Shown here in pieces: positions 6,201-36,301 of a DNA stretch of 64,000 nt (within the stretch, counting starts at the first letter, position 1; each line of letters opens with the position of its first letter). The notes under the pieces are model-generated. The model made no database searches. It saw nothing but the letters and a program-made list of their open reading frames with translations, and was not told the origin of the DNA. A program made the position numbers and the translations under genes. This DNA comes from Trypanosoma brucei. Lineage: Eukaryota. The DNA is taken from positions 128,001 through 192,000 of the forward strand of contig CP000067.1 in assembly GCA_000002445.1 (NCBI GenBank), read 5' to 3'.

Positions 6201-6797
6201 AACGCCTTTATCGTGGCCCTCTAATGAATATTTAAGACCCACATCACTGGTTCCGAGCAGATCTTGAGCAATTCCCGGCTGTTGCTTTCGGACCCGCAAA
6301 CTGGAGATGTCCCACACTCGAATTGTCCTGTCAAGACTCGCTGATACCACAATGTCATCCCGAGGGTGAAATCGAGCACACATAACGTAGTGCGTATGCC
6401 CAGGAAGACAAGCCAAACTGCTTCGGTTCTGCCAATTCCAAATGCGGACGGTGAAATCGTCGGAGGAGGAAACAATCCATGGTTGCTCATGGTGGAAAAA
6501 AGTTGATCGAACATAGTCCATATGCCCCTTTAAAGTAAAGAGGGAACGGCGCGCCTTGTAGTTCCAAACCTTCACCAAGTAGTCATCACCTCCAGAAACA
6601 AATAGAGGTTGCGTATCATGAAAGTCTACACCACGTACCGCACCGCTATGTTCATCATACTTATCAACGCTCGTGTTCACGCGGTAGTCCCAAATTTGCA
6701 CGGTTCCGTTGTGCAGTCCGCAAAGCACCCACGGCCGCGTTTTGTGGAAACTTATCCCTTTCACACGACTGGAGCGAACATCAAATCTCGTCAGCAT
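3219..6797 (-). CDS. COPA: Coatomer (COPI) alpha subunit
   Basis: 1192 aa. N-terminus MLTRFDVRSSRVKGISFHKTRPWVLCGLHNGTVQIWDYR matches the conserved alpha-COP start ([23 protein letters not shown]...). WD40 repeats (GH..WD motifs) are followed by a long helical domain and a Cys-rich C-terminus (CGYCF...CPVCR). ATG at 6795-6797. Confidence 0.9.
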   Translation of the reverse strand: MLTRFDVRSSRVKGISFHKTRPWVLCGLHNGTVQIWDYRVNTSVDKYDEHSGAVRGVDFHDTQPLFVSGGDDYLVKVWNYKARRSLFTLKGHMDYVRSTFFHHEQPWIVSSSDDFTVRIWNWQNRSSLACLPGHTHYVMCARFHPRDDIVVSASLDRTIRVWDISSLRVRKQQPGIAQDLLGTSDVGLKYSLEGHDKGVNWVCFHPTQPLIASASDDRTVRVWRISSTTCTEEVQLRGHTNNVSCVVYTKDYLVSNGEDRTIRVWDVKTRCSVMLFRRESDRYWMLAALLEKNLLAAGHDSGVHVFKLFRERPASTMNGNVLHYVHGNVLHSYNMESKTESKFSLSRNLHPPLTLSCNPVDNMAVVFYDKDGGCASTLTIPKPGCTVDADVKKRLGILAALFYAPNKCAFLDKNKNIILCNAHGDGEKVIKHEKNLKALFPGPAGYILRQTEEGMELFHVAQQSVAAEVPITETKYVVWDKDFTKVAFLGITTVHVMTRRLRSITFFSEPSIRIKSAAFDEQRNILYYTTSDHLKYCNLRNGECGIIQCLPSPIYLVRASGDTVWALSRNGKVVVMELNNPELNFKLKLQQQAYRDVIKIIRQKQLRGQALVGYLHKHGHDEVALYLVSDPLTRFNLAVECGAMDVAKTAALELNQPALWRRLAEAATSYGDIHLALLAHTKTGNFHGASFLSLITGNMSALDHMVNTVRDENFGLHYGMYLDDAHQRVKTLTNTGQLPLAYVAAKSTGLDELAASLLEKMDPDVAERMRQTEVKVRLEAPTVTPVTDNWPMLQVEESVFSRFLREPNLLSGAGVGIEEEEYAEAGAGWDDVDGLPNSDDGSGGLDGVEGSEAAEGDGWGDDLEIEIPAEQTAGGVEGAPYVVPTERPPLTQHWVETSSFPAFHVAAGSFSTALGLLRRQIGLGDPAPLKTHMLDLWATVNASRPSWLIPSAMFPLTTYPSEEQRGAASHSPLLPDYIPQLTERLRSGYSAFVGGHFADAQLHFVTALHQAVFTTCRGEKQFTTLREIVTTASEYARALNVQLHCRSTDGASKLSLELSLYFTHFKLQRNHLALALGQAMSKAYKLKNLKIAASVARRLLDQDPPKQKAAQASAIVAEAERNPTDAEPVDYDERNPFVLCSVSHRPMYKGTVDPIRCGYCFSPAMPKHKGEICPVCRIAFLGADCSGLANRT

Positions 6798-7155: not shown

Positions 7156-8127
7156 TCATTCGTTAAGGAACTCACACCTGTCAGGGTACACCTGTCTTAC
7201 GTTAATATTGACACGCAAATGACGCATCTGCTCCCTCCAGTAAAATTCTCCTTCTTCCTCCTCCGTTTCATTCTGTGGGCACAAGTACTGCGGACAATCG
7301 TCCATAATGCGTGGTACGCCGTGGTAAGCTGTTCGGGAGGCACCGCTCACGACAATAACATCGCCACTACGGAGCCAAAAGGCACACGGCGTATCGTCAC
7401 GAGACTCGGTCCCCATGAGAAAAACACATGAGCATCCCAGAGAAATACTAATGAGCGGCTGTTGCAGCACTTCTTCACTCACATCCTGGTGAGCCATCAT
7501 CATAGCCCCTACCGGGAAGTAGTTGACAATCGAAGTTTGTGGCTCGTAAGGCTGTGAAACGTTACAAAGGCGGGCAATTCGTTCAACACATTTTCGAAGC
7601 CGCCGGGGAAAATGCGAATACTTCTCCTTGCAGTATGATTTAGATGACCATTGATAACTAAACCCCACCGTCGCCCAACGCATTGGTGGTTCATAACGTG
7701 TTGTTTCCCTTGGCTCGCTCGCATGGGTCGAGAGGTGATTGGGGTGCCGCCGAGAATCGCCGTATTCCAGTAAGGCAGCGCGGCAAAATTCCTGCTGCTC
7801 CGCATCCGTGAGAAAATTCGGGAACACCTCCATTCCGGGGACGCCGGCAAATGTGCAACACTTCACGAGCCGGTCATCCTCATGGCACTCCCTGGTGGAA
7901 ATACACGCCAGGTTTGCTGCTGTGTTCGCCTCAAGATTGCGAAAATCAACAACATCGCTAAAGTCCGTTTCAGGAACTTGTAAGCGCCGTGATGTCCGGC
8001 GGTCGTAACGGTAAAGTTTGTAGCGCTTCTCCACTTGTCTAAACGCCGTCAACGGCAACAATTCCCCCTGACTGTAGCCATCGTCTTGCGCGTGTTTCTG
8101 ACATTCGCAGCGCACGGGGTCTTCCAT
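7156..8127 (-). CDS. AlkB-family Fe(II)/2-oxoglutarate dioxygenase (alkylation repair homolog)
   Basis: HxD...H iron triad (MAHQDVSE ... YHGVPRI) and the R-x-N-x-N-x-R 2OG-binding motif (LRVNINVRQV). The track start at 8220 is GTG with a junk hydrophobic extension. The first ATG is at 8125-8127 (MEDPVRCECQK...), giving 324 aa. Confidence 0.7.
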   Translation of the reverse strand: MEDPVRCECQKHAQDDGYSQGELLPLTAFRQVEKRYKLYRYDRRTSRRLQVPETDFSDVVDFRNLEANTAANLACISTRECHEDDRLVKCCTFAGVPGMEVFPNFLTDAEQQEFCRAALLEYGDSRRHPNHLSTHASEPRETTRYEPPMRWATVGFSYQWSSKSYCKEKYSHFPRRLRKCVERIARLCNVSQPYEPQTSIVNYFPVGAMMMAHQDVSEEVLQQPLISISLGCSCVFLMGTESRDDTPCAFWLRSGDVIVVSGASRTAYHGVPRIMDDCPQYLCPQNETEEEEGEFYWREQMRHLRVNINVRQVYPDRCEFLNE

Positions 8128-9455
8128 TGGGGAACCGACGAAGAGCCAAAAACAACTGAGGGAAAAGAAAAGAAAAAAATGAAAGTGGTTAAAGTGAAGT
8201 GGAATTAGTGCGGCACCCACTCAATGATATTCGCCGTAGTGCGTGGTATTGGAGCGTATTTTAAGTGCTAAATTGGAACATCAACGGCTAGTTAAAATAA
8301 TAAAGCAAACAGAATAAATTAAATAAAAGGTGGAGCAAAGGGATCCATATACAACTCCGAATTGAGAAGCCCACTTCTACTTGTGAAAAATAAGGGCACA
8401 GGCAGCGCAATCCCACACATGAACGCGGAACTTCAAAAAATAAATAATAAAGACCATCAACTACCTTAGTTGGAGACAAGTTAAATTTTTTTCCTTTTAG
8501 AGAGAAAAAGGAAGGCACGGACACGCATACACCACTGGCAACGCATGGTGGTAAACAGCACCACCGGCACCTTTTGTGACGAAGAGCCCAAATTTATTAT
8601 TATTGTTCCCCACATCCAAGACAGCACACCAGCAAATAGAAAAAAGAGATACAGCACTATCAACAGCGGCATGTCAGTAGAGATCGAAAATGACAGGCAA
8701 AGCCCTACGGTTCTCGTCGTTTTATGGGAGTTTCGAGGTGTTGTAGTGATGCTCGTAACCATCGGCCTGTAAGCAACTCGGAAGCTATCAATGGAGGTCC
8801 GCATTGTTTCAATCCCTCACGAAACCTCGAATATGCGGAAAATAACCCCAGAAACAATGCGGTGTTCATTCAGGAGGTGGGGGTGGACGAACATCAAATA
8901 TGAATGGCATCTCACAGCTACGAGGATATGAAGCATCAACTGTCCAAGTGAAATCAAGTAGTGAGAAAATCAGTTTTTTTAGAAGCGACTCGGAATGCCA
9001 CAGCGATAATCCCTCGACAGCTAGCGTTACTGGAGGAGGGAAATGGATCCAAACACAACCAAGAAGAAATAAATTAAATGTTATGTTTCACATTGTTCTT
9101 GTTGAGGGATGCGTTCTTGAATGAGAGATGCAGAAAGTGGGAAAATAAGTGCAAACCATGAAACAACAATGAATGGGACACAACCGAAACAGCAAGAGCC
9201 AACAAAAAACGTAGCAAAGGAAATAAATTCCTTTCTCGTGTTTTACGGTGAAACTTATTAGAACAGATTCTCACTCGCCGTTTAACATTAAGCGGCTTTT
9301 CTCGTTCCCTTTTATGTCTCTTCGTTTCCTTCATTTTCCTTTTCTTCTTGTGTTACACCCTTTCCTCTCCGTTTACTTGCGCGTCGTTAGCCGAAGTTAC
9401 TACCGATCATGGGTGGCGCAAATAGGTTAAAAGACACCCATCAGCTCCAACTGCA

Positions 9456-10145
9456 TCAAAAACCACGCCCGCGGCCACCAAATCCCCCGCGGCCGCCGCG
9501 ACCGCCACCACCGCCACCAAAGTTTCTGTAGCCGCCTCCGTCTCCTCCTCTGCCGAAACCACCCCGGCCGCCACCACCACCACCACCTCCTCCTCCAAAA
9601 CTCCCGCGACCACCGCGACCGAAGCTTCCGCGTCCACCGCGATCACCGCCCCTTCCGCCACGACCGCCACCCCGCCCGCCGCGGCCGCGTGGCTTCGGTG
9701 GATCAGTGAACATACGCAGAGGACTTATCTGTGTAGGGGATATATATATCGTATCTCCTGCGCTAATGGATTCTGCTTGTATGCCCGGTACCGTTTTGAC
9801 TGAAAACATTACATCGCTCGTGTTGCCCAATATTTCCTCGATCTTACCAATCTTGGCCTTGTTGGCACCATAAACAAATGCGTTGAAACGTGGTACAGAG
9901 TCACTCGCTGTCACTTTGTAGACGAGGTCGCCCTCCGAAGCGGTGAGCAATGTTCCGATGGGTACAATTTGCTCTGGTGGGTCCGGCTCCATGGAACGGC
10001 CACCGCCACCACCTCCTCCTCGACCACCGCCACCGCGTCCACCGCCAAAGCCACCGCCGAAGCCGCCGCCTCGACCACCACCTCCCCGACCACCGCCAAA
10101 GCCACCGCCCCGGCTGCCTCCAAAACCGCCTCCTCCCCGTGCCAT
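9456..10145 (-). CDS. GAR1: H/ACA snoRNP protein GAR1 (Gly/Arg-rich domains flanking a conserved core)
   Basis: 229 aa. N- and C-terminal RGG/GAR repeats (GGRGGGFGG...). Central core IVPIGTLLTASEGDLVYKV...PRFNAFVY is typical of Gar1. ATG at 10143-10145. Confidence 0.85.
   Translation of the reverse strand: MARGGGGFGGSRGGGFGGGRGGGGRGGGFGGGFGGGRGGGGRGGGGGGGRSMEPDPPEQIVPIGTLLTASEGDLVYKVTASDSVPRFNAFVYGANKAKIGKIEEILGNTSDVMFSVKTVPGIQAESISAGDTIYISPTQISPLRMFTDPPKPRGRGGRGGGRGGRGGDRGGRGSFGRGGRGSFGGGGGGGGGGRGGFGRGGDGGGYRNFGGGGGGRGGRGGFGGRGRGF
9458..10140 (-). repeat. Codon-level GGC/CGN tandem repeats encoding the two GAR (RGG) domains of GAR1
   Basis: Two blocks (about 9458-9720 and 9985-10140) of imperfect ccgccacc/ccgcgacc-type repeats on the + strand. 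Confidence 0.8.
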
Positions 10146-10427: not shown

Positions 10428-11126
10428 TCATGGTGTTTCACAGGTCTCCCGCCACTCAGCAAAAAGATCGAAAGCAGTAGGCCATGCATCTTCCTTCCGA
10501 TATGGGGTTGCATTTTCTCCGGTATTGAAAAACAACGCCACATGCCGCCAAATGTCGCGGGTAACCTCGCAATCGTAAAAACCTGTGTACCATCTGATCC
10601 ACTGTGCAACCTGCTGGTCACCCCTAAACAGTACATCCCACGCCCTCGCTGCAGTTTCAGGAAGCATCATGCGCGCACTATCCCCCCTAATGTAATCATA
10701 TAATTCGCTGTAGAACTCAACAAAAGAAGGACCTCTTGCGTCCTTCACCCACTCCCGAAGCCGTCTCTTCAGTTCCACCGGGACCTCAATGTTGTAGTTG
10801 TACACCATGTTCAACCAATCTGAGCGTGGAATGCACCCACCCCTTGTAATCCCAAGCTTCCAAATGAGCGTGTACATCTCGAAGGAATCCCTTTTTATAG
10901 CAAGATCCTCACAGAGATGTTGAATTCCCTTTGGTCCTATAGTTTCTAGGCCTTCTGCAGAGTCCATCGACGCAAAATTCTCAAAATAACGTTCCATCTC
11001 AGTTCGACCGGTCGAAGAGGCAGTGCCTGTGGAAGCCTTAACCGAAGACACAAAGCGTGAGGCTCTCCGTGCCATCTTGTGCGGATCCAACCCGGTGACG
11101 GTTGTCGACATATCCCCCGTTACCAT
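10428..11126 (-). CDS. DCN1-like protein (PONY/DCUN1 cullin-neddylation domain), no obvious UBA domain
   Basis: YFENFAS...EGLETIGPKGIQHLCEDLAI...MYTLIWKLG...DWLNM resembles the DCN1 PONY domain (IGPEGMEKFCEDIGVEP...MLVLAWKL...EW). The track start is TTG. The first ATG is at 11124-11126 (MVTGDMSTTV...). Confidence 0.6.
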   Translation of the reverse strand: MVTGDMSTTVTGLDPHKMARRASRFVSSVKASTGTASSTGRTEMERYFENFASMDSAEGLETIGPKGIQHLCEDLAIKRDSFEMYTLIWKLGITRGGCIPRSDWLNMVYNYNIEVPVELKRRLREWVKDARGPSFVEFYSELYDYIRGDSARMMLPETAARAWDVLFRGDQQVAQWIRWYTGFYDCEVTRDIWRHVALFFNTGENATPYRKEDAWPTAFDLFAEWRETCETP

Positions 11127-11980
11127 TATTATTATTTTTTTTTTTGCTTCTTCCTTCCCTCGAACTATATGGGTGCGCAAAAATACAGTTAGTTATATTG
11201 TTGTATAAAAGCAGGCAAGCGCAAGCGCTTGCTTCAGAAACTGCACAGCTGCCACACCTCTTCAACACCAACGAAAGGGACTTTTCACCCGCGCTATAAC
11301 ACAAACACTACAATTACAAAAATAAATAAAGAAACAGCAACAGTGAAGAAAAGAGAGCGCAGCGCAACAGTTTCAGTAGCGGTGATTGTATTAACGATTT
11401 TCAGAAATGGAAAAAAAAATCAAAATAAAGAATTCTTGAAGCACCGAATTTTACGATCGTCTGCGGTTCTTAAAGAGAGCGCTAACACATGACATGTCCC
11501 CGTGATCCCCACCCACCGTTACGGGGCCTCTGCAGCTGATCGGCTCGCAGAAGTGACGATTTTTTTTTTTCACCATCGGCAGTCGAAAAGGGGGGAAAGC
11601 GTAAGGACGCGAAGATATCCACTTGAACTTCACATCACCCATTCACTAAACACCTGCAGAGCTTTGTGAAAGAAAATTCACCGCAGAATACTTCCGAAAG
11701 CATTTGAGATTCGTCATGACAGTGTGAGGTCCATAGGTCATACCACAGGAGGCACCCAACATAGCAAAGTCAACGAGGAATAAAGAGAGCCAAAACGAAT
11801 AAAAATAGATGAGAAAAGGAGGGGTTCTCACATCTCCATTACTCGGCCGCTAAATATATCCATCAAAAGAAGCCTCCGCAACAACAGCACTCCGCCAACT
11901 TTATAAGTAAATAGAGTATAGCGCATCCAAGCTATGGGAAAGGAAACATATGTATATGTAGCTATTTCTGATAAACACAA

Positions 11981-13627
11981 CTAACTATCCGACGATATTT
12001 CTATGCCGTTACATTTGACGACACTCTCAATGATGGTACTCATAGAAACTAACCCGCTTTTCGTCAAGGATCCTGCAGTGCTCTGAAAAAGCAGGAACTC
12101 CTGAAGAATGGCTACAATGAGTTTCATCGGTTTCGATTCCACAGCCTTCCCCGTTTCTGTCCCTTTCGTTGCCTGCGCCACAGCCGTTATGACAGGCACA
12201 CGCAGCTGAACTTTCGGCGTGTCGATGAGGGATAGAACAGCAAGCAGTAGCGCGTAATACCCGGAAACGACGTTCCGCTCCGTTTCCTCTGCGTTGTAAC
12301 ACTGCAAAGTCAATTCTGCAATCCGAGAGAGAAAATCCGGACAATTAACTAAACATCGGGCAAACTCGTCGCATCTAGAAGCGACTTCCCACTTCACAAT
12401 GTTCACTGCAGAGCAGAGGATGAAGGCTGCTACGTTCAAGGGAGTGTTGTCACTCATCAGCCTTTTGGTAGAAAACTCAGCGAGCTGTGACCTCTCACGC
12501 CGACGATTCGAATCCCGCAGTGCATGCGGAACAAGACTCGTGCCATTAACCAAAACCCGCAGAGCAATAGTTAGCACATCATTTTCGCACTTTGTGTCCT
12601 CACGCGCCACCAAACGTATCAAAAGGATAACCAACTCTTGCAAAGCCGCATCATAAGATGGGCACAACCGTTCGCATAATGTCACAACCTCCAGCAGGTG
12701 AAGCACATCTTTGCAGTCCGCGTCGTTCAGCATGGGTGTCACAACCTCAAATCCGCCAAGCTCAGCAAACACAAGGCAAGGGTTAGCTTCCCCTGGAAAC
12801 GAGGTTGCTTGATTGTACCTAAAAATAATGTGGAGTAACGCCTTAAGAGCTAAGGAGGTTGCGGTATCATCTGATTTCCCGCGGCAAAACTTGTCAACAG
12901 CTGACTTCAGTGCTGAATCATCTTGACGCCGTTGCTTAGGTGGCGTCGGGCAATGTGCCCGCTGCGACCAGTGCTTTGATCCAGCTGGTGTTGCAGCAGC
13001 TTCCTCAGCTCGCTTCTCGGAGCTCAGAAGAAAGAATTTCACCAAACTAGCATCGGATAATACCTCATCGTCGCATAGAGTTAACAAGTGGCCGACAAAA
13101 CGAATATAAAGTCCTTCTTTGTTGTCTGTAACGCTGCGTGCGGAGGATTTGCAGAGAGCGCTGAGCAGTTGCGATTGCAGTCCAGCTCGTTTCAAAGATT
13201 GCATTACCATATCTGGCTCATGTTCCATAAAGTAGAGGACAAGTGCCATCAGGGCCTCAGGTGTGCGTGACGATGAGGCGACCTCAGCCAAGTATACGCA
13301 CATATCCGCAATATTTTCCTCTTCCCTGCAAAAGAAGTTCATTTCTGTTTCAAACACGCTCCCCCGCAACCTCGGAGAATCCGCCCTCTTGACCAACCTA
13401 ACCCTTGCCTCATTCACCGTAGGGATATGCATGGTATCAGGACCGGGTACGCTGCCGCCGCTGCTGCTACTACAATTTTCGTTTGAAGTATCACTACGCA
13501 ATGACAGTTGCATAGCTTCACCATCTGAAGATTGGCTTAATGGAGGGGATTCAGCCGTCCGCTTGCATGCCATAAAGGAGTCCAAATAACCAACGACATC
13601 GGCCATGCACCGCTTGCGTTTCGACAT
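11981..13627 (-). CDS. Conserved hypothetical protein, 548 aa, Ser-rich N-terminus and alpha-helical (ARM/HEAT-like) C-terminal half
   Basis: Long ATG-initiated ORF (ATG 13625-13627) in the cluster orientation with non-repetitive composition. I recognise no diagnostic catalytic motif. Confidence 0.6.
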   Translation of the reverse strand: MSKRKRCMADVVGYLDSFMACKRTAESPPLSQSSDGEAMQLSLRSDTSNENCSSSSGGSVPGPDTMHIPTVNEARVRLVKRADSPRLRGSVFETEMNFFCREEENIADMCVYLAEVASSSRTPEALMALVLYFMEHEPDMVMQSLKRAGLQSQLLSALCKSSARSVTDNKEGLYIRFVGHLLTLCDDEVLSDASLVKFFLLSSEKRAEEAAATPAGSKHWSQRAHCPTPPKQRRQDDSALKSAVDKFCRGKSDDTATSLALKALLHIIFRYNQATSFPGEANPCLVFAELGGFEVVTPMLNDADCKDVLHLLEVVTLCERLCPSYDAALQELVILLIRLVAREDTKCENDVLTIALRVLVNGTSLVPHALRDSNRRRERSQLAEFSTKRLMSDNTPLNVAAFILCSAVNIVKWEVASRCDEFARCLVNCPDFLSRIAELTLQCYNAEETERNVVSGYYALLLAVLSLIDTPKVQLRVPVITAVAQATKGTETGKAVESKPMKLIVAILQEFLLFQSTAGSLTKSGLVSMSTIIESVVKCNGIEISSDS

Positions 13628-14453: not shown

Positions 14454-15746
14454 TTAAGCTGGAACTTTACCGCGCAAAATGTCATCATACAGTGCTGTCA
14501 GAGTTGCTCCCGTCAATGAGATTACAGATTTGCTTTTGGTTCCTTTGGTGAAAACAACCGCTCCACAGCCGGTCAATATATTCCTGGCAGTACGGCGCCA
14601 CGCTGGTGGAACTTTTTCCAGAGAGAAACGCCTCCCCAGTAGGGCGGGCTTTCCGACGTTTGAAGTAATGACTTGGAAGAGGCGCCCAGCATCGTAGGTG
14701 CAGTTGTTGTGAACTAGCGACGGCGCAAACTGCCTCACCTGTCGCATATCCCCACATGCGAAAAATTCCTCCGTAACAACCGGTATGCCGCGGGCAACGG
14801 CAATGATAAATTTGGGTGTTCGTACGGGTGGGTGATTGATTATAAGAAGATCTGCCATGCAAACATTATCCACAATAGACCAGCAATGCTTCTTCGCAAG
14901 GAACTTAGCCGCCAGCGTCGCTTCTCCACACATCCCTGAAAAGCAAACTTTCACTCGACCCTTCGATTTACTCTTGGGTTTTAGGCGGCTACCTCTTGCG
15001 GTAGTTTCACTTTTAACCGTAGCTGAGGAAGGCAAGCTCTTAACCTTAGATAACCTGTCAGTGGTGTTTTTAATAACGGAGCGGGATCGTTTCCTCCCGG
15101 CGCCAGTACTCTCCGAAAGATACGGAACCACATTTTCAAGTTCGCAAAGAGGTTTGCACAGCACGCCGCAATCCAATTGCACAGAAACAACAGCGCAAGT
15201 TTTTTCATCCGATGCGGCGGTCAGAGTCACCGGCAGCGGGGGTGTTGCATCCGTTCCCGCAAGGGAACAAGAAGCACAAATGGATGAGCACACGGTTCCT
15301 TCAAGACGAAGCAAATCGTTGCTGGCCCCATTCATCCCAGAACCCTGTGATGAATCCATTAGGTTTGCATTTGAGTCGTAGACGGGAACTCTTCCCCCGC
15401 AAACGGCAATAACGTCCCATTCAAAGCGCAATTTCAAGTCACCAAAAGTAACATGGTTACCGCGCTTCAACTGGTAGAAAAACCCCGGCTCCAAGCGTAC
15501 ACTCACACCCGTGTCGGAGTGAAGGAAAGTTCCGTTAGTGCTTTCGCAATCGCGTAGCCACGCCTCCCCATTTTCGCATAGTTTGATGATGGCGTGCGTA
15601 CGGCTCACGTTGATGCATGTGGTGCCGACACAAACAACGTTTGCACCCTTGACTGCTATTTCTGCTCCACGACGGATGATGTTTTCCCCAGTTAGCAGCC
15701 GCATGATCCTCCCAGTAGATTCATCAATGAGAAAATACCTCTTCAT
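14454..15746 (-). CDS. FHA-domain protein with C-terminal BRCT-like domain(s) (Nbs1/Xrs2-like architecture)
   Basis: N-terminal FHA signature (RIMRLLTGENIIRRG...NVSRTHAIIKL...WLRDCESTNGTFLH). The C-terminal region VKVCFSGMCGEATLAAKFLAKKHCWSIV...TPKFIIAVARGIPVVTEEFF is a BRCT-like pattern. The track start is GTG. The first ATG is at 15744-15746 (MKRYFLIDESTG...). Confidence 0.6.
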   Translation of the reverse strand: MKRYFLIDESTGRIMRLLTGENIIRRGAEIAVKGANVVCVGTTCINVSRTHAIIKLCENGEAWLRDCESTNGTFLHSDTGVSVRLEPGFFYQLKRGNHVTFGDLKLRFEWDVIAVCGGRVPVYDSNANLMDSSQGSGMNGASNDLLRLEGTVCSSICASCSLAGTDATPPLPVTLTAASDEKTCAVVSVQLDCGVLCKPLCELENVVPYLSESTGAGRKRSRSVIKNTTDRLSKVKSLPSSATVKSETTARGSRLKPKSKSKGRVKVCFSGMCGEATLAAKFLAKKHCWSIVDNVCMADLLIINHPPVRTPKFIIAVARGIPVVTEEFFACGDMRQVRQFAPSLVHNNCTYDAGRLFQVITSNVGKPALLGRRFSLEKVPPAWRRTARNILTGCGAVVFTKGTKSKSVISLTGATLTALYDDILRGKVPA

Positions 15747-16165
15747 CGGATACCTTAGGTATACCACGAGGGGGTTGCGCCTCCGAGCACTAAACCAAAG
15801 GGCACAAGCATACGCGCACACAATAGGAGGCAGAAAAAGAAAAGTAGGAGAGGATGGGAATGTAAATGCGTAGACAACTTATACTAACGTGAATGCGCAG
15901 AGTAAGTCCAAAAATTTGATACTATCTACAATGCTCAGCCATGGGTCAGCAAATGCGCAAGCAAACATACGTGTAGAACACACTTCGCTTTGCTCCCACC
16001 CCACCCCCTCCGCACACAAATAAACAACCTCACAACTTCGGTCCGCACCATTGATTCAGGAGGAACCTCAAATCACCACCAACAGCTGTTCGTTTAGTAG
16101 ATGGCAGTCAAGAAAAAGGAACAAACAAGAAAGGAAGCGAAGAGAAATAGTCAAGTGTGTCGCTT

Positions 16166-16483
16166 CTAGCTTTGCTCCAGAGCATCAGACACCGCCCTCT
16201 TCACTACAATGCCAAAGTGTTCATTTGGGCCGGCAATCGTAGTAATGACGTACGCAACATTGTCGAACACCATCGATATGCGTTTGAGTTCCTCCCCAGG
16301 CCTAAGTAATGTGGAGGCTTGTTGTGCTACTGTGTAGGCAAGTAGCCGTTTCTCCTCATTTTGGAAGTCACCACTCCACTCCAGCACTTCACCCACGGAA
16401 GTAAATATGACAAAGTGGTTGGCCCCTTGATTCAGAAGCCGATCCTTCAACAAACTCGCTTGACTCATTGCAGCCACCTCCAT
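16166..16483 (-). CDS. Roadblock/LC7-family protein (dynein light chain roadblock-type / MglB-like)
   Basis: 106 aa from ATG 16481-16483 (MEVAAMSQASLLKDRLLNQGANHFVIFTSVGEVLEWSGD...ISMVFDNVAYVITTIAG). Size and pattern match Robl/LC7. The track's upstream extension is polypyrimidine junk. Confidence 0.65.
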   Translation of the reverse strand: MEVAAMSQASLLKDRLLNQGANHFVIFTSVGEVLEWSGDFQNEEKRLLAYTVAQQASTLLRPGEELKRISMVFDNVAYVITTIAGPNEHFGIVVKRAVSDALEQS

Positions 16484-16881
16484 CCCTTCCCTTTTATAAC
16501 GTGTGTCAAATTGATGGGACGAAGAAAAATGAAAAGGAAGCAAAAAGAGGCAGAAATACGTTAACACATAAACGAATATATAGGTGTGTGTGTCTACGCA
16601 CATGGTGCCAGTAGCGTCATCCAGAAACAAGCGAAACCAACGCACAAAATAGGAAGGTGAGCAAAAACATCAAGAGCAGATACCATCTGGAAAAGGCGTA
16701 AAAATAAAAAAAATGAAACGTTCGAACATCAGGAATAATCCTCTACACGAAGTATGAGATAAAGAAATCATAAGAGAAACCCCCCTACAATTTCACAAAA
16801 AATACGCACATTCACAAAAACACATATATTCATAAGCGCTATTTATTAGTTTTCGTGCACACGAGTATCCCGTCATTATCC

Positions 16882-17984: not shown

Positions 17985-19517
17985 TCAGCGGTTGGTATCA
18001 GCACTCGGCTTAAGTGCTACTGCACCGAAAAAAGACATTAAATTCTTCTGAGGGGTAGCGCCCTGGCGCTCAACTTTTGGCGGCCCCCTTCGCTCCACCG
18101 CCACTTTTGCAGAAGCTTTGCCCCCACCGCCTACTGCAAGGGGGTTTTTGCTTCCGGCGTCATGTGTTGATTTTTGCTCAGTCGCGACGCACGTTCGCAT
18201 CAACTCAGCGCTTTTCTTATGATATTCCTCTTCAGATAATACCGCACCCGTCTTTACGTGCCGGTACACCACCCTGTCGCTGCAAATGTACTCGCCGCCC
18301 TCAAAAACCGTGTCCGTTTCCAGCTCACGTGAATACTCTTTCTGAAAGGCAATCACCTCCGGTTGAAAGAACCCCGTAAGTTTTGGATGTGCTGAGAGTG
18401 CAGCGTTGCCATTAGCTGCCTGTGTCCGATGTGGATCCCTCTTTAGAGGAGATGAGGTTGGTTCGGGGGCGCAGAATATCATCGGTGGTGCATTGTCACA
18501 CAAAATTATCTCATCATTCTCTGCAGGTGTAAAAGCGACCTCAAGCACAGGTTCAGGGTCATCTAAGAGGCCTTCATCGCGGTGTGGGGAACGGTTTCCA
18601 CGACTGCTGCCATCGGATTGCTCTTCATCATCAAGAATATCTCGAGACGATTTGGCATTGTCTGTATTACAGCCATTTGCAGCTGCAGCTGCGCTTGACG
18701 ACCCAGTAAGGCTGCTCTTCTTGGATGCCTTAGCGAGTTTCATTAAACTTGTAGTGGCTTCACCAACTTTCGCCTCCTTTTTGGATTGGGCGCGGGGTTT
18801 CTTCGCCTTCGGGGACGCCTTCTTGCTATCTTCAATGAGCCGGTCCCGCTTCGCCCCCCCAACTGGCATACCCAAAAGCGTTTGCTGTTTCTTGCCACCG
18901 GACTCCTTTGGAATTAACTTCGGAGCACCTTCCGCTGCCGCCCCACTCAAAGAAACCGGTGCAGGGTTTTTTCCCCTCTCCATCTCATCCATCCTATTCT
19001 TTTCTTCTTCCTCTACATTCTTAACAACATTCTCCTCTTCCAACCGCTTCATCGGTTCCTCTGTCGGAGGGGGTGGAGAGGGCGCCTCCTTCACAGATGG
19101 TTTCGGCTCCGGTGACCTTTCCTTCTTTACTGGAGGCGGAAAGTCATCATTCACCAATACGGGCACAAGTTTGCGTTCCCGCTGTACCACACCGTTTCTT
19201 GGCACCAGAGCGGGACGGGTCTTCCGGGGCTGAAATGCAGACGCGGGACCTCGCTTTCGTAATGCGTACACTTCCACAGAGGCTTCATTGAGTGTTTCCC
19301 GCGTCCATTCAGCTGCAGCAGCACCACTGCACAGATACACAACAGTGCTATGAGGTTCAGTACCGCGGCCGGTAACGGTAAAAAGCACCTCATAACCTTC
19401 CTTTGATGTGGCAATGTTCTCAAATGCCGCGCGCACATCAGCTTTCGGCAGCGGTACCTCAGAGGCGTGAACAAAGTATGAACTTTCCACCTGCTGCAGT
19501 AAATCTAGAGGAGACAT
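17985..19517 (-). CDS. DNA polymerase delta subunit 3 (Pol32/POLD3)-like protein with C-terminal PIP box
   Basis: 510 aa. Structured N-terminal ~100 aa, then a long Lys/Pro/Glu/Ser-rich disordered region. The extreme C-terminus QKNLMSFFGAVALKP is a canonical PCNA-interacting Qxx[LIM]xx[FY][FY] motif placed as in POLD3. Confidence 0.45.
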   Translation of the reverse strand: MSPLDLLQQVESSYFVHASEVPLPKADVRAAFENIATSKEGYEVLFTVTGRGTEPHSTVVYLCSGAAAAEWTRETLNEASVEVYALRKRGPASAFQPRKTRPALVPRNGVVQRERKLVPVLVNDDFPPPVKKERSPEPKPSVKEAPSPPPPTEEPMKRLEEENVVKNVEEEEKNRMDEMERGKNPAPVSLSGAAAEGAPKLIPKESGGKKQQTLLGMPVGGAKRDRLIEDSKKASPKAKKPRAQSKKEAKVGEATTSLMKLAKASKKSSLTGSSSAAAAANGCNTDNAKSSRDILDDEEQSDGSSRGNRSPHRDEGLLDDPEPVLEVAFTPAENDEIILCDNAPPMIFCAPEPTSSPLKRDPHRTQAANGNAALSAHPKLTGFFQPEVIAFQKEYSRELETDTVFEGGEYICSDRVVYRHVKTGAVLSEEEYHKKSAELMRTCVATEQKSTHDAGSKNPLAVGGGGKASAKVAVERRGPPKVERQGATPQKNLMSFFGAVALKPSADTNR

Positions 19518-20744: not shown

Positions 20745-22292
20745 TTAATCATCGTCCGGATCCACAAAATCCGGCAGTTCATCTAATCCCTCCCATTCCT
20801 CAGGGATATTAATCTCCCAATAAGCTGGCAGGCTAAACACCTCCTCTGGTGAATATTTCTTCAGACATTGCTCCACAACACGCAAAACCTTCTCTAGCCG
20901 CGATTGCATTGTAAAAAAAATTGTGAGGCCTAACATGTTAAAGACAAAAGGGTGTAACACCTTCCGCACATGCGCTACCAGCGGAAGGGTACGATATAAT
21001 GAATCCGGTTCATCATACGCCTTCAGTGCATCATATGTTCCACGCCTGAAGCGGCAAATGGAAATATTCGCTACATTCCCAGAGAAGGGATTATTACTGG
21101 GATCAGCACGTGAATAAAAACCGCTACCGTGATCAAGAAAAGCGTACTTGGCGAGTCCCTTGATGCGTTTGTCCTTCATTGGTCGGTCACAAACGGTTTC
21201 ACGACCGCAGCCACCGTACACAAAGTTGTTGTGGTCATTCATACCGCGATCACTATTACCAATGATGAAGTCGAAAATAAAACGGTCATTAAGCTCACCG
21301 ATAGCCCGCAACCTCGCGCTCTTTGGAGGCCAAAATGAACTTCCTGGAATGAAATACTTCTTGGCAAAGGCATTGTCATACTTATACGGCAGCTCCAAAA
21401 AAGTTTCCAATGCTGGATGGACATCATGCATCCATAGTTGAACAGAAACGTAGGCGCAAAGTGAAGCACGAAACGGTGGGTGTCGTGAAGAATTTGTGCA
21501 AGACACAAAGTCCTCTTTGATGTTCTTATCTTCAAAAATAGTGTTCGACGCCCACTGCGAGAGGAGAGGGGAAGTTGCGGCAGCGGCTTGCATATGCTCC
21601 ACGGGAAGAGCAACTAACACTGTTGTGGGAACTCGTGACAAGTTCAGGGCGCGATCAACACTAAAAGCAGCTACCTCACTACTGGCCTCGAAGTAAAACC
21701 TACCCTGAGAAACCTTCACTAGCGCTTTGATTCCATTATGGGCATATGTAATCCTAAACTTTATCGTGCGCCCGTACAACAGCTTTGACGACATGGCCTT
21801 AATGTAGCGCATGTTGTTCAGATTGCTAAGGTACGCCTTGCAAAGTTCATCACGTTCCACCGTAAACTCTGCGTTGCGTCTATCGCACGCCTCCCATTCG
21901 CCTCGTTTTGATGAATTGACAGTTGCAAGATTGTACGGCAAAGGCACACCCAGCCCTGGCTTGGCAATGATGTCTGTGAACTTACCCGATGGTTGCCAAG
22001 GGTCTCCTTCAATTTCCTTCAGGAGTAAATTGTTCGCAAACGTTCGTAGCGCCTCAACGTACTCTTGTGGGAGAATGTAATCCACTGCAGCCACTTGTGA
22101 ATCTTCTGCAGTTTTTTTGGAAATTGGAGTGGGTGCCTCGCCTACACGGCTGGATGAGCCAAGGGTTTTATATAGTAAGCCACAACATACACACACAGGC
22201 ACCATCAAAATAAGAACAAGGAAAATTAGCACACGGCGCCTCGCACGTGTCCACTTCACGCGGCTACGGCGGCTGAAGTGACGAAAAGACAT
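20745..22292 (-). CDS. Type II membrane protein with Fam20/Four-jointed-like secretory-pathway kinase domain
   Basis: N-terminal signal anchor ([22 protein letters not shown]). GIKALVKV...[20 protein letters not shown] matches Fam20C (K)...[38 protein letters not shown] matches LDFLMGNMDRHHYE (catalytic loop). LDHGSGFY matches IDNGRGFG (metal-binding D). Confidence 0.55.
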   Translation of the reverse strand: [515 protein letters not shown]

Positions 22293-23602: not shown

Positions 23603-26600
23603 CTAGGGCTCCAGCACCAGCGCAACACCCGCCAAAATGAAAGCTTTAGCGGCAAGCTCGCTGGCACAGGGTAAATGTAATTCTGCAAGAAACATTTCCT
23701 TCGTGCCATTGGTGTATAACGGTACACCAACAGTGGTTACCGAATCCGGCATTGTGGTCATCCAACCAACATAAGTCTTTGGCATTGGAAATAACGCAGC
23801 CTCGTCCGCTGCCTCAATGGATTGCAATACATTAGACTCATCCAGTACAGCACCTTGCAGCATTAACCCCTCCAAACACACAGGGACTGTTTTACCCTCT
23901 GGTGGTGTAGAAATTGAGGTAACAAGCCGAAGAGCCACGAGAGGTTCGTGAAGGGAATGGGCAGTTTCCTGTCGAAGTGCATGCAAAAACGTGTGCGGTC
24001 GGAACATGGTGGAAATGTTAAGTGAAGACTTGAGAAGATTCCCATTCGTGGCCAACTCGAACAACTTTGCGATTGACGTTGCTCGATGCAACAGTGACTG
24101 CAGCCACGGTAAAATGCGAGGAGAGCCCTGATAATAGTTGTCCCATTGAGCCGGTACCTCGCCAGCGATCATTGTTGAAGCTTCAGCACGCCGATCTTCC
24201 CTCAGCAGAGCTTGACCTTCCAGAACCTTACCCAAGTCCTTCATCGACTCGTCCACAATGCTCACAAGACGCAGTGAAGATGTCATTTCGGCCCCCATGA
24301 AACCGAGAATTGGAGATGCATCCCGTGCAATACTAACTGTTTGCTGCAACAAGTCAGGGTTGGGCCGCATGAGTTCCTCCCACACTTGCAGAATTGGTCT
24401 CAACTTGTTTGCCCACTGTTCACGACTCATGGATGACTCACCTCTTGCTTCAATAAGGAGCTGCAAATCGTCTGTTAGTGCACGAACCTTCGACAACTGC
24501 ACGACGCGATCGGCATTTGGGGGAAGCGAAAAGACGAAAGGAATGTCATTTTCTGGTAGTTCTGATATCACCTTAAGGCAATCCCCATGCTTTCCTGATG
24601 CAGGTACTTTTACCTTTGCAAAGAGATTCATCTGTTGCTTCGCACTGGAGAGCACATTTGGATTAAAAAATTGATCCGTGTACTCCCTGAGGACGCGCAT
24701 GTCATACTCATTTTCCAAGCGAGAGCCATAGATGGCATCCTCCATGAGGCCACGAATAGCACGCCAGTCGGTCTCTCCCTTTGCTTGTTGTAGGACAATA
24801 TCTGAGGCGGACTTAAGATCAGCCGACGTCATTTCGTATGCCTTTGTCCAACCCTGTGGAATGTACGAGCGTCGCTCCTGCAGAATGGCGTGGAACGATG
24901 CCGTGATAAAGAGTAATTGCGTGTGAAGAGTTCCCTTTGCATCGTAAGGACCACTTTCCCAATCCTGGTAAGTGTGAAGAAGGTTTTGCTGTACACCCGG
25001 TGGTGCCTCAAAGGTGATCTTAAGGCACTGAGAAAGAAAAATTGAAGGGAAATCGTCATGCGCCTCGCTTGTGAGGAATAGTCGGAACTTGGAGTCCGGT
25101 TTAAGAACGTTCAGCTCCTTCTGTAGCGCTGTGACCCATGGGATCACAAGGTGCAAATTCTTTAGGAATAGCCAATCACCACTCTCAGCGCAGGCCCGCA
25201 ACAACCGAACAGCTTCCTCAGCCTGTCCACCACCCATAGCAAGTTGGTGGAAGTGATCCCGCCCGACCTTCTGATGAGCAATCGCTTGTAATTCCTGCGA
25301 GGGGTCAGCACCAGTCGTCGTGATTAACAAAATAGGCGTATTTGCCTCCGTACGAGTCAACAGTTGGGCGAGAGTATTATTGTCACCATAAGATTTAACA
25401 TGCAACATGTCACACGCCGTGCTTCTCACCGCCGCCATTAGCCTATCAGGACGAAGAGTCTTAACGACCAGTAATCGCTGAAACCTTGAAAGTTGACTAA
25501 TGAATTTGGGATACGATACCTCTGGGTTGGAGGAACGCATCCACTGCAACCAAACATCAGCCTCATGAAGAGAAAGCTTCGGTGTGAGATCTTCAAATAA
25601 CACGGCAAAGGAGCGATAAAGATCTCTGCTGTCTGGGAGTACCCACGTGGGCACCCGTACTTCGCTCTTCTTTGCTTCAGGGGCGATGGCGCGGTCAAGA
25701 AAGAAGTCCCATTCAGCAGCAGTGCAATCATTAGGGTACAGAGAACGAGCAAGGTGGATCCCGAAGACTGTACGGTGCTCCTTAAACAGGGAAGTGCAAA
25801 CCGAAGACACAACGCTTCGCACAAATGTCTTCGTTAACGCATCAATTTTAGTGTCGATATCGGTACGATCTTCTGCGTGGTGATGCAGTGTGTCGTTGAA
25901 TATCCCCATAAAGAAGCTGAAAGAAAACTGATACATATGCGACAGGGCTTTCAGACTTTTCACAATAAAGAATATTTCACTCGCCGTTTTTGCGAATGGT
26001 CGGTACACATTGCGCTTGGTATCGATTTCCTCCTGAACCTTCTTCGACGTTTCTAGCGCCACACTAATCTCCGCAGCCTGTGTTTTGATTTCGTTAAGGG
26101 AGTCAATCAGCGTTTTGTTATCCAGTAGCGATCCCTTTGACTCCGCTAAGTCTTTGAGGAGCGATTCCTCCAGATCGCTTAGTTGCATTTTCAGTCGCTC
26201 TTCTTTCTGAAGGACGGCAAGTTTCTCCTTCTCCAACTCCGGCTGTTCGTGTTGAATGGTTGCACCCAAAAACTGCCCCTCAAGACCATTTTGAGTTATG
26301 GAGAAGTTAACAGGAGTCAAGTAACTGAGAACGTCTGGGGGAATCCAAAGGTCAGTGGAGTTGGTAACGAGATAAAGTTGGAATCCATCCGCGTAGTCCA
26401 CCGTGCGACGGTCGCCGAACTGAATGACGCGTTTTGTACCCTCGGTCCGAAGTTCTTTTCGGAAGAGCGGGTACATGAACGCCTCAATGCCGTCTACATC
26501 AGTGAGAATAAAGCTCTTACCGAAGCGAAGCGCCAACTCCAAAGAAGATACAAACCGTTCTTCAGACACACTACAAACTTCCACTGATAGGCCCTTGCCT

Positions 26601-35600: not shown

Positions 35601-36301
35601 GCTGTGTCCTGATCACTGTCATTCCAGAAGTCAGTTATTGCCATCTGCGCATCCTCTAACATGTCTGTGACATGCGACGGCTCCACACTGTCCATATTTC
35701 CCCATGCCTGGGAGAGAACAGTTTCAGCGAAGGAGGAGGTGCACATGCCCCCAAGGACACGACGAAGGGACTTCATGTACAACAAAACTTTCGTGTCGTC
35801 CTCCTCGCTAGATTGGAGGGAAAACAACACATAACCTGCAACGACCGTATCCAACCGTTGCCCCCCTCGGGGTGTGAGGCACTTGGGAAAATCTGAAACT
35901 TGGAACACCTGCAATTCCGAGTGCTTAATGAGGTAACGCATATACGTTACCTCAACCACAGAGGTTATAGGAGGGCTGTCACCGGGTAATTCGTTGAAAT
36001 CGAGGTCACGAACACGAACGGCCTCCGCAAACCGTAGAACAGTAAAGTTCTCCCGAGCATCAATGTTCACATCAGTTAAACCAACCTTAGTTGTTCCCGC
36101 CTCAGATCCACATGCCGCCTTGACGAAACCACTAAATAACGCAGCGGCAATTGGCGGACACTTCTCGCTTCCGACGGCAATCTGCAGCTCAACGACGTCG
36201 GAACGGCGGTTAGTTGAACTCACGGAGGCGCCCAACTGCTTGAGTGTTTCCCCTGCCACATCTACGCACACATCTGAAATATCCTTCTCTGCCGAAACCA
36301 T
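23603..36301 (-). CDS. DHC2: Dynein heavy chain, best match cytoplasmic dynein-2 (IFT retrograde motor) heavy chain
   Basis: 4232 aa with ATG at 36299-36301. Four P-loops: GPAGTGKTE (AAA1), GPGGSGKST (AAA2), GPEGCGKK (AAA3) and a degenerate AAA4. AAA1 context [33 protein letters not shown] matches the dynein-2 consensus ([32 protein letters not shown]) better than cytoplasmic dynein-1 ([25 protein letters not shown]). Stalk coiled coils and a C-terminal domain are present. Confidence 0.85.
   Translation of the reverse strand: [4232 protein letters not shown]

What the first reader, a model, noticed from the sequence alone, without database searches (positions are those of the whole stretch)
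14454..15746. FHA plus BRCT architecture (Nbs1/Xrs2-like) protein
A clear N-terminal FHA domain is followed, after a Ser/Thr-rich linker, by a BRCT-like block (VKVCFSG...TPKFIIAVARGIPVVTEEFF). FHA followed by BRCT is the hallmark of Nbs1 and a few checkpoint mediators. Kinetoplastid Nbs1 orthologs are poorly characterised.
Basis: inference. Interest (0 to 1): 0.5.

Follow-up and report, generated by a model that had tools for sequence, protein, structure and literature searches.

The report
Trypanosome MDC1-like FHA–tandem-BRCT adaptor
This Trypanosoma brucei gene (Tb927.4.500) really does encode an FHA domain plus BRCT domains, but its layout and closest relatives are those of the DNA-damage mediator MDC1, not Nbs1, which makes it an untested candidate for the protein that reads phosphorylated histone H2A at DNA breaks in trypanosomes.

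Summary
Window 14454..15746 (minus strand) is a 430-aa ORF identical to T. brucei TREU927 Q57US5, most likely Tb927.4.500. It has three parts:
- an N-terminal FHA domain (Pfam 34.8 bits, cutoff 20.7);
- a ~150-aa disordered, Ser/Thr-rich, basic linker;

The Nbs1/Xrs2 reading is not supported.
- The BRCT pair sits at the extreme C-terminus, behind a long linker.
- There is no Mre11-binding or ATM-binding motif, and no Nbs1-specific Pfam or PDB sequence match.
- The literature assigns TbNBS1 to another gene, Tb927.8.5710.

Each domain on its own points to MDC1/Mdb1.
- The top PDB profile hits are the MDC1 FHA, the Mdb1 BRCT and the MDC1 tandem BRCT.
- The first non-euglenozoan hits among 1.84 billion proteins are animal MDC1s.
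- hhalign probabilities are 98.8% (tandem BRCT) and 99.3% (FHA).

The phosphate-pocket residues S/T-G and R-T-x-K are conserved across the family.

The likely function, which is inferred, is a compact MDC1-type adaptor. Its tandem BRCT would dock on the γH2A tail (pT130-P-S-V-COOH) and its FHA would bind pThr partners. I found no functional study. I rate it a new member of a known kind, of moderate interest.

The parts
14454..15746 (-). Complete CDS, 430 aa plus a stop codon (TAA at 14454..14456). Identical to T. brucei TREU927 Q57US5, most likely Tb927.4.500.
   Evidence: [quoted passage not shown]
15411..15746 (-). FHA domain, residues 1-112. An 11-strand beta-sandwich that would read phosphothreonine.
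   Evidence: Pfam FHA 34.8 bits. AF2 strands span residues 4-110. Family profile hits the MDC1 FHA at E 2.9e-5. hhalign gives 99.3% against animal MDC1 N-termini. Foldseek matches APLF and MDC1 FHA at TM 0.72-0.76.
15669..15671 (-). R26, the invariant Arg of the FHA 'G-R' loop (predicted phosphate contact).
   Evidence: Invariant in A1 and in about 50 family representatives. Coordinates checked.
15594..15605 (-). S48-R-T-H51, the FHA 'S-x-x-H' loop (predicted phosphate contact).
15528..15536 (-). N71-G-T73, the FHA 'N-G-T' loop (peptide backbone contact).
14961..15410 (-). Disordered linker, residues 113-262. Enriched in Ser/Thr and basic residues and poorly conserved apart from one short motif.
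   Evidence: pLDDT below 50 over residues 114-262. S+T content 23.6%. Alignment.
15108..15131 (-). Conserved short linear motif V-V-P-Y-L-S-E-S (residues 206-213; family consensus [VT]-P-Y-L-[DSA]-E). Its partner is unknown.
   Evidence: P208, Y209 and L210 are invariant in A1 and present in most of about 50 representatives.
15078..15101 (-). Basic cluster A-G-R-K-R-S-R-S (residues 216-223). Resembles a nuclear localisation signal (inference).
   Evidence: (regex). R218 is nearly invariant.
14748..14960 (-). BRCT1, residues 263-333.
   Evidence: Pfam BRCT over residues 265-329. AF2 shows beta-alpha-beta-beta-alpha-beta-alpha. PDB profile hits are Mdb1 at 3.3e-5 and MDC1 at 1.1e-3.
14934..14939 (-). 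S270-G271, which aligns to MDC1 T1898-G1899 (phosphate-binding loop).
   Evidence: HMM alignment to 2azm_A. hhalign. S/T-G is conserved across the family.
14811..14822 (-). R309-T310-P311-K312, which aligns to MDC1 R1933-T-V-K1936. The Lys contacts phosphate; the Arg contacts the +3 residue or the C-terminal carboxylate.
   Evidence: R, T and K are invariant in A1 and nearly so in about 50 representatives. MDC1 residue roles are from established knowledge (Stucki et al. 2005).
14652..14747 (-). Inter-BRCT linker, residues 334-365 (helix, beta-hairpin, helix).
   Evidence: Aligned with the MDC1 inter-repeat region.
14457..14651 (-). BRCT2, residues 366-430. A shortened second repeat that ends the protein.

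Best explanation
The gene encodes a compact (430 aa) MDC1-type phospho-dependent adaptor or mediator of the nuclear DNA-damage response. It is not Nbs1.

Shown here:
- an N-terminal FHA domain with an intact pThr-binding signature;
- a ~150-aa disordered linker carrying one conserved P-Y-L motif and basic clusters;
- a canonical C-terminal tandem BRCT whose phosphate pocket is conserved and aligns residue for residue with MDC1 T1898/G1899/R1933/K1936 (S270-G271, K312, and R309 at the +3/carboxylate position).

Inferred mechanism:
- After DNA damage, the tandem BRCT docks on the phosphorylated C-terminal tail of histone H2A. This is trypanosomal γH2A, ...KHAKA-pT130-P-S-V-COOH. Its phospho-residue lies three positions from a free C-terminus, the same geometry as γH2AX pS139-Q-E-Y-COOH read by MDC1.
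- The FHA domain and the linker motif then recruit pThr-marked or other partners, or mediate self-association. This concentrates repair and checkpoint factors on damaged chromatin.

Sub-probabilities: MDC1-like architecture and homology, not Nbs1, about 0.85; nuclear DNA-damage-response role about 0.7; direct γH2A(pT130) reading by the tandem BRCT about 0.5.
For: Identity and expression:
- The protein is identical to T. brucei Q57US5.
- Tb927.4.500 is listed as 'FHA and BRCT domains', with mRNA 2.6-fold higher in cultured bloodstream forms.

Domains:
- Pfam FHA is above its cutoff and BRCT is marginal in T. brucei.
- All 14 orthologues hit BRCT, and 11 hit RTT107_BRCT_5, a γH2A-binding type of BRCT.

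Structure:
- AF2 gives FHA, a disordered linker and two BRCT repeats.
- The Foldseek top hit is the MDC1 tandem BRCT, 2ado (E 4.3e-7).

Sequence, with each domain tested independently:
- The family profile against the PDB hits the MDC1 FHA (2.9e-5), the Mdb1 BRCT (1.7e-4 and 3.3e-5) and the MDC1 tandem BRCT (1.1e-3).
- The profile against 1.84 billion representatives finds, as its first non-family hits, animal MDC1s matched in both domains.
- hhalign gives 98.8% (tandem BRCT, 145 columns) and 99.3% (FHA).

Pocket and layout:
- The pocket motifs align to MDC1 and are conserved across about 50 representatives, including T. cruzi and a euglenid.
- All 64 two-domain relatives have the FHA at the N-terminus and the BRCT pair near the C-terminus.
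- Chytrid fungi carry the same layout, and one of those proteins is named MDC1.

Ligand geometry: the γH2A tail is pT130-P-S-V-COOH (PMC3334830).
Against: - There is no experimental datum for this protein: no localisation, binding or phenotype. The literature searches found none.
- Canonical MDC1 and BRCA1 tandem BRCTs prefer pSer, whereas trypanosomal γH2A is pThr (established knowledge).
- The MDC1 hallmark linker elements are absent: no SDT repeats, TQxF motifs or PST repeats.
- BRCT2 is shortened.
- The AF2 models rest on shallow alignments (14 and 11 sequences; mean pLDDT 59.7 overall and 77 for the C-terminal domain).
- Shared ancestry with MDC1, as opposed to independent domain shuffling, is not proven.
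Confidence: 0.6

Rival explanations
1. It is the kinetoplastid Nbs1/Xrs2 orthologue: an FHA-BRCT subunit of the MRE11-RAD50 complex that binds Mre11 and ATM through C-terminal motifs.
Against: - The FHA and BRCTs are separated by a 150-aa disordered linker, and the BRCT pair ends the protein.
- No NFKxFxK or FxF/Y motif is present.
- No Nbs1_C or NIBRIN_BRCT_II Pfam hit appears at E<=10.
- No Nbs1 or Xrs2 chain appears in PDB profile searches at E<=1, whereas MDC1 and Mdb1 are hit.
- None of 64 two-domain relatives has the Nbs1 layout.
- TbNBS1 is assigned to Tb927.8.5710 (PMC7897489).
Confidence: 0.03
2. It is a generic FHA-tandem-BRCT phospho-adaptor whose BRCT pair reads an internal pS/pT-x-x-hydrophobic motif on some other nuclear protein, not the γH2A tail. 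Such a target could be a replication, checkpoint, transcription or kinetochore factor, in the manner of BRCA1, TopBP1 BRCT7/8 or KKT4.
For: - The conserved S/T-G...R-T-x-K pocket is common to all class-II tandem BRCTs.
- BRCA1, BARD1, SLF1 and TopBP1 BRCT7/8 score as well as MDC1 by fold.
- Tandem BRCTs usually prefer pSer, while γH2A here is pThr (established knowledge).
Against: - Sequence-level similarity, as distinct from fold, singles out MDC1 and Mdb1 for both domains independently.
- 11 of 14 orthologues hit the γH2A-binding RTT107_BRCT_5 model.
- The gene is not in the KKT list.
- The layout matches MDC1 across animals, chytrids and Euglenozoa.
Confidence: 0.27
3. It is an MDC1-like adaptor in which the FHA domain, not the tandem BRCT, reads γH2A pThr130. 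FHA domains are pThr-specific and often select an aliphatic residue at +3, here Val-COOH. The tandem BRCT would then bind a different phosphoprotein.
For: Trypanosomatid γH2A is unusual in being phosphorylated on Thr, with the sequence pT-P-S-V (PMC3334830). The FHA pThr-binding residues are intact and invariant.
Against: No known γH2A(X) reader uses an FHA domain. All solved γH2A(X) complexes use tandem BRCTs, and those dominate the fold hits. The conserved Arg at the MDC1 R1933 position fits carboxylate recognition.
Confidence: 0.1

Closest known systems
[quoted passage not shown]
   Same: N-terminal FHA, a long disordered linker, and a tandem BRCT at the extreme C-terminus. It is the best sequence match for both domains. 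The phosphate-pocket and Arg residues align (T1898/G1899/R1933/K1936 to S270/G271/R309/K312). UniRef already labels the Leptomonas and L. donovani orthologues 'MDC1'.
   Different: It is 430 aa, against about 900-2500 aa for the animal MDC1 hits. It lacks SDT repeats (the NBS1 docking sites), TQxF motifs (RNF8 docking) and PST repeats. BRCT2 is shortened. The presumed ligand is pThr-P-S-Val-COOH rather than pSer-Q-E-Tyr-COOH. The linker carries a lineage-specific P-Y-L motif.
S. pombe Mdb1 (fission-yeast MDC1 homologue, PDB 7p0j) and chytrid 'MDC1' proteins
   Different: Sequence identity is low. The Mdb1 FHA status was not examined here. Fungal H2A carries the canonical SQ motif.
Nbs1/Xrs2
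   Same: It contains one FHA and two BRCT repeats and reads phosphoproteins in the double-strand-break response.
   Different: In Nbs1 the FHA, BRCT1 and BRCT2 form one fused N-terminal module, followed by a long tail with Mre11- and ATM-binding motifs. Here the order in space is FHA, then a 150-aa linker, then a tandem BRCT at the C-terminus, with no tail and no such motifs. There is no sequence-level match. TbNBS1 is Tb927.8.5710.
Other γH2A(X)-reading tandem BRCTs: PTIP BRCT5/6, MCPH1, Crb2/53BP1, Brc1 BRCT5/6, Rtt107 BRCT5/6
   Different: None of them has an N-terminal FHA. They carry Tudor domains or further BRCT repeats instead.
T. brucei KKT4 BRCT and KKT13 FHA (kinetoplastid kinetochore proteins)
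   Different: They are different genes with different architectures. Tb927.4.500 is not among the KKT genes, and its similarity to KKT4 is much weaker than to MDC1.

Membership tests
Nbs1/Xrs2 | FHA directly fused to BRCT1-BRCT2 as one compact N-terminal module | tested here: not met
   The FHA ends at about residue 112 and BRCT1 starts at about residue 263. The 150 residues between them are predicted disordered. None of 64 two-domain relatives has an FHA-BRCT gap under 40 residues.
Nbs1/Xrs2 | C-terminal Mre11-binding motif (NFKxFxK type) after the BRCTs | tested here: not met
   A regex search finds none. The protein ends with BRCT2 at residue 430, so there is no tail.
Nbs1/Xrs2 | Extreme C-terminal acidic FxF/Y motif that binds ATM/Tel1 | tested here: not met
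   The only F-x-[FY] match is F89-F-Y91, inside the FHA fold.
Nbs1/Xrs2 | Sequence similarity to Nbs1-specific profiles or solved Nbs1/Xrs2 chains | tested here: not met
Nbs1/Xrs2 | Physical association with Mre11-Rad50 | not testable with these tools
   This needs co-IP or pull-down experiments. The literature assigns TbNBS1 to Tb927.8.5710 (PMC7897489).
MDC1 / Mdb1-type mediator | N-terminal FHA domain with intact pThr-binding residues | tested here: met
   Pfam FHA 34.8 bits. R26, S48/H51 and N71-G-T73 are conserved. The best PDB sequence hit is the MDC1 FHA. hhalign gives 99.3%.
MDC1 / Mdb1-type mediator | Tandem BRCT at the extreme C-terminus, with a canonical head-to-tail pair | tested here: met
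MDC1 / Mdb1-type mediator | Phosphate-binding S/T-G and Lys, plus Arg at the +3/carboxylate position (MDC1 T1898, G1899, K1936, R1933) | tested here: met
   The aligned residues are S270, G271, K312 and R309. They are conserved across about 50 representatives.
MDC1 / Mdb1-type mediator | Closest sequence relatives outside the lineage are MDC1 proteins, for both domains | tested here: met
MDC1 / Mdb1-type mediator | Phospho-specific binding to the γH2A(X) C-terminal tail | not testable with these tools
   This needs peptide binding assays or a complex structure. Only the ligand geometry (pT130-P-S-V-COOH) is known (PMC3334830).
MDC1 / Mdb1-type mediator | Central SDT repeats, TQxF motifs and PST repeats (features of vertebrate MDC1) | tested here: not met
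   There are no TQxF motifs. The single 'SDT' lies inside the FHA fold (residue 77). There are no repeats and only one SQ. The protein is therefore a minimal member, as fungal homologues are, and not a vertebrate-type MDC1.

The most novel reading that the evidence does not exclude
Tb927.4.500 is the so far unidentified reader of trypanosomal γH2A (pThr130). On this reading it is a minimal MDC1 whose tandem BRCT has been retuned from pSer-Q-E-Tyr-COOH to pThr-P-S-Val-COOH. That would show that the MDC1-type FHA...tandem-BRCT mediator predates the split between Discoba and opisthokonts, and so was probably present in the last eukaryotic common ancestor. It would link break signalling to homologous recombination and VSG switching through its FHA domain and the conserved P-Y-L linker motif.
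Probability: 0.4. Interest if true: 0.6.

Novelty: new member of a known kind. Interest (0 to 1): 0.4.

Why it matters
Trypanosomes mark DNA damage with an unusual γH2A (pThr130, with no SQ motif). I found no protein in the literature that reads this mark and connects it to repair, checkpoint arrest or VSG recombination. This gene supplies a concrete, easily testable candidate through peptide binding, tagging and RNAi.

It also corrects a plausible mis-assignment: TbNBS1 is a different gene.

If the homology to MDC1 reflects common descent, the MDC1-type mediator is far older than animals and fungi.

Interest is tempered for two reasons. The FHA+BRCT composition of Tb927.4.500 was already noted in 2009, and automated pipelines already label some Leishmaniinae orthologues 'MDC1'.

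Tried and rejected
- **Kinetochore protein.** KKT4 has a BRCT and KKT13 has an FHA, but Tb927.4.500 is not in the KKT list, and KKT8 is the only Tb927.4 entry there. Rejected.
- **Functional literature.** Searches on MDC1, BRCT, γH2A, Q57US5 and Tb927.4.500 found only a 2009 transcriptome table entry. The two other 'Tb927.4.500' hits were returned by a substring ('anywhere') search. I did not open them and assume they are longer IDs such as Tb927.4.5000.
- **DNA-damage phosphoproteome supplements (PMC11408851).** A search for FHA and BRCT entries found only Tb927.11.6480 and pescadillo. The stored files are truncated, so absence means little.
- **AFDB50 fold search.** I wanted it for the taxonomic spread, but the library is unavailable. 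I substituted a homology search from P0070, which showed chytrid fungi.
- **Longer GTG-initiated ORF (to 15821).** Rejected. The annotated protein and all orthologues start at the ATG at 15746, and a polypyrimidine tract with AG dinucleotides lies just upstream.

Full report
**What is there**

The coordinates given (14454..15746) correspond to a minus-strand ORF of 430 codons plus a stop. The mechanical ORF list extends it to a GTG at 15821. However, the first in-frame ATG is at 15746, a polypyrimidine tract with AG dinucleotides lies just upstream, and all orthologues begin at the equivalent position.

The protein is 100% identical to T. brucei brucei TREU927 Q57US5/XP_844200.1, on a 1.59-Mb contig the size of chromosome 4, and 99% identical to T. 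b. gambiense.

The gene sits in a minus-strand polycistron of unrelated housekeeping genes: COPI-alpha, an AlkB-like oxygenase, Gar1, a DCN1-like protein and a dynein heavy chain. From the position next to COPI-alpha I guessed Tb927.4.500. [quoted passage not shown] The ID link is an inference from chromosome, neighbourhood and description, not a sequence match.

**Checking the observation**

- **FHA.** Pfam PF00498 scores 34.8 bits against a gathering score of 20.7 (E 2.3e-8). AlphaFold2 models an 11-strand sandwich over residues 1-110. The canonical phospho-threonine-binding residues (R26; S48-x-x-H51; N71-G-T73) are present and conserved.
- **Linker.** Residues 113-262 are predicted disordered (pLDDT below 50). 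They contain 23.6% Ser+Thr, against 16% overall.
- **BRCT.** In the T. brucei sequence alone the Pfam hit is just sub-threshold (20.5 against 21.3 bits, E 5.6e-4). However, all 14 family members match BRCT (best E 1.1e-12), and 11 also match RTT107_BRCT_5 and PTCB-BRCT.

**Is it Nbs1?**

The features that define Nbs1/Xrs2 are a fused FHA-BRCT1-BRCT2 N-terminal module followed by a long tail carrying Mre11-binding and ATM/Tel1-binding motifs. None of these is met.

- The FHA and the BRCTs are 150 disordered residues apart, and the BRCT pair ends the protein.
- There is no NFKxFxK motif and no C-terminal FxF/Y motif.
- No Nbs1-specific Pfam family appears even at E<=10.
- Among 147 profile hits from 1.84 billion representatives, 64 contain both domains and none has the Nbs1 layout.
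- The trypanosome literature assigns NBS1 to Tb927.8.5710, on chromosome 8 (PMC7897489).

**What it resembles instead**

Each domain on its own points to MDC1.

- With the full-length family profile, the best PDB sequence hits are the MDC1 FHA (E 2.9e-5), the S. pombe Mdb1 BRCT (1.7e-4), the MDC1 tandem BRCT (7.7e-3) and MCPH1.
- With the C-terminal profile alone they are Mdb1 at 3.3e-5 and MDC1 at 1.1e-3, across both repeats.
- The Foldseek top hit for the whole model is the MDC1 tandem BRCT, and MDC1 FHA entries are among the best FHA matches.
- In the exhaustive profile search, the family proper (39 representatives at E<=1e-30, including T. cruzi, with a weaker euglenid hit at E 2.1e-19) is followed directly by animal proteins named MDC1 (skate, sharks, mussel, beetle), matched in both an N-terminal and a C-terminal stretch.
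- Eight of ten mid-length hits have N-terminal FHA plus C-terminal RTT107_BRCT_5+BRCT_2. The relatives of one of them are chytrid fungi, one of which is named MDC1.
- Local profile-profile comparison with 17 long hits taken as animal MDC1s (the six whose names were looked up include four named MDC1) gives 98.8% probability for the tandem BRCT (145 columns, 26% identity) and 99.3% for the FHA.

**Pocket residues**

The HMM and hhalign alignments place the family's 'V-C-x-(S/T)-G' on MDC1 'V-L-F-T-G'. They place 'V-R-T-P-K-F-I-I-A-V-A-R-G-I-P-V-V' on MDC1 'R-R-T-V-K-F-L-C-A-L-G-R-G-I-P-I-L'.

From established knowledge of the MDC1-γH2AX complex (Stucki et al. 2005; PDB 2azm), T1898, G1899 and K1936 bind the phosphate and R1933 binds the C-terminal carboxylate. 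The aligned T. brucei residues are S270, G271, K312 and R309. They are invariant in the 14-sequence alignment and nearly so in about 50 representatives.

**Mechanism (inferred)**

Trypanosomal γH2A is H2A phosphorylated on Thr130 in the tail ...KHAKA-pT-P-S-V-COOH (PMC3334830). The phospho-residue lies three positions from a free C-terminus, as in γH2AX pS139-Q-E-Y-COOH.

The simplest model is that the tandem BRCT docks on this tail at lesions. The FHA, the conserved linker motif [VT]-P-Y-L-[DSA]-E (residues 206-213) and the basic clusters would then bring in partners or drive nuclear import and self-association.

I put the steps at these probabilities:
- MDC1-like architecture and homology rather than Nbs1: about 0.85.
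- A nuclear DNA-damage-response role: about 0.7.
- Direct γH2A reading by the tandem BRCT: about 0.5.

**Caveats and rivals**

- Canonical MDC1 and BRCA1 tandem BRCTs prefer pSer (established knowledge) and the mark here is pThr. The pThr-specific FHA might therefore be the γH2A reader (rival, about 0.1).
- The vertebrate MDC1 linker elements (SDT, TQxF, PST repeats) are absent and BRCT2 is shortened. This is a minimal member, as the fungal homologues are.
- The AF2 models rest on shallow alignments.
- I found no experimental data on this protein.

**Novelty and verdict**

The domain composition of Tb927.4.500 has been in print since 2009, and automated annotation calls some orthologues MDC1. 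This is therefore not a new kind of system. It is an uncharacterised, compact member of the MDC1/Mdb1 mediator family in Euglenozoa.

Its value is practical. It corrects the Nbs1 reading, and it nominates a specific, testable candidate for the unknown reader of the atypical trypanosomal γH2A mark, with possible relevance to recombination-based antigenic variation and to the antiquity of MDC1.

Interest 0.4.

Noticed in passing
window 16166..16468 (-), inside the mechanical ORF 16166..16645: A small ORF of about 100 aa (MSQASLLKDRLLNQGANHFV...) lies immediately upstream of the FHA/BRCT gene. It is 48% identical to the first 97 residues of the L. donovani 'FHA domain family protein' model P0013. 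That Leishmania model is therefore a fusion of two neighbouring genes, and the gene order is conserved between T. brucei and Leishmania. The ORF has no Pfam hit.
   Followed up: partly
window 15108..15131 (-), residues 206-213: An invariant short linear motif [VT]-P-Y-L-[DSA]-E sits in the otherwise unconserved disordered linker and is present in most of about 50 family representatives. Its partner is unknown, and it resembles no motif I could test.
   Followed up: partly
window 23603..36301 (-): A 4232-aa ORF encodes a dynein heavy chain. It hits the full set of dynein motor Pfam domains, including DYNC2H1_AAA_dom, which suggests the IFT/cytoplasmic dynein-2 type.
   Followed up: partly
window 7156..8220 (-): A 354-aa ORF has a strong 2OG-Fe(II) oxygenase (AlkB-like, PF13532) match, E 9e-53. 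It is possibly a DNA/RNA alkylation-repair dioxygenase, two genes away from the FHA/BRCT gene. In a trypanosome polycistron this proximity is probably coincidental.
   Followed up: no
window 20745..22292 (-): A 515-aa ORF has a weak match to the C-terminal domain of the Fam20C Golgi casein kinase (E 9e-8, 32.4 bits against a cutoff of 26.8). That would be an unusual family for a kinetoplastid if real.
   Followed up: no
window 3219..6797, 9456..10145, 10428..11180 (all -): Ordinary housekeeping neighbours: COPI alpha subunit, a Gar1 H/ACA snoRNP protein, and a DCN1-like cullin-binding protein. All ORFs of this 30-kb stretch that look like genes are on the minus strand, as expected for one polycistronic unit.
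   Followed up: partly
window 11981..13627 (-) and 17985..19517 (-): Two long ORFs (548 and 510 aa) flank the gene and have no Pfam hit at E<=0.001. The 510-aa one is rich in low-complexity Lys/Ser/Pro/Glu sequence.
   Followed up: no
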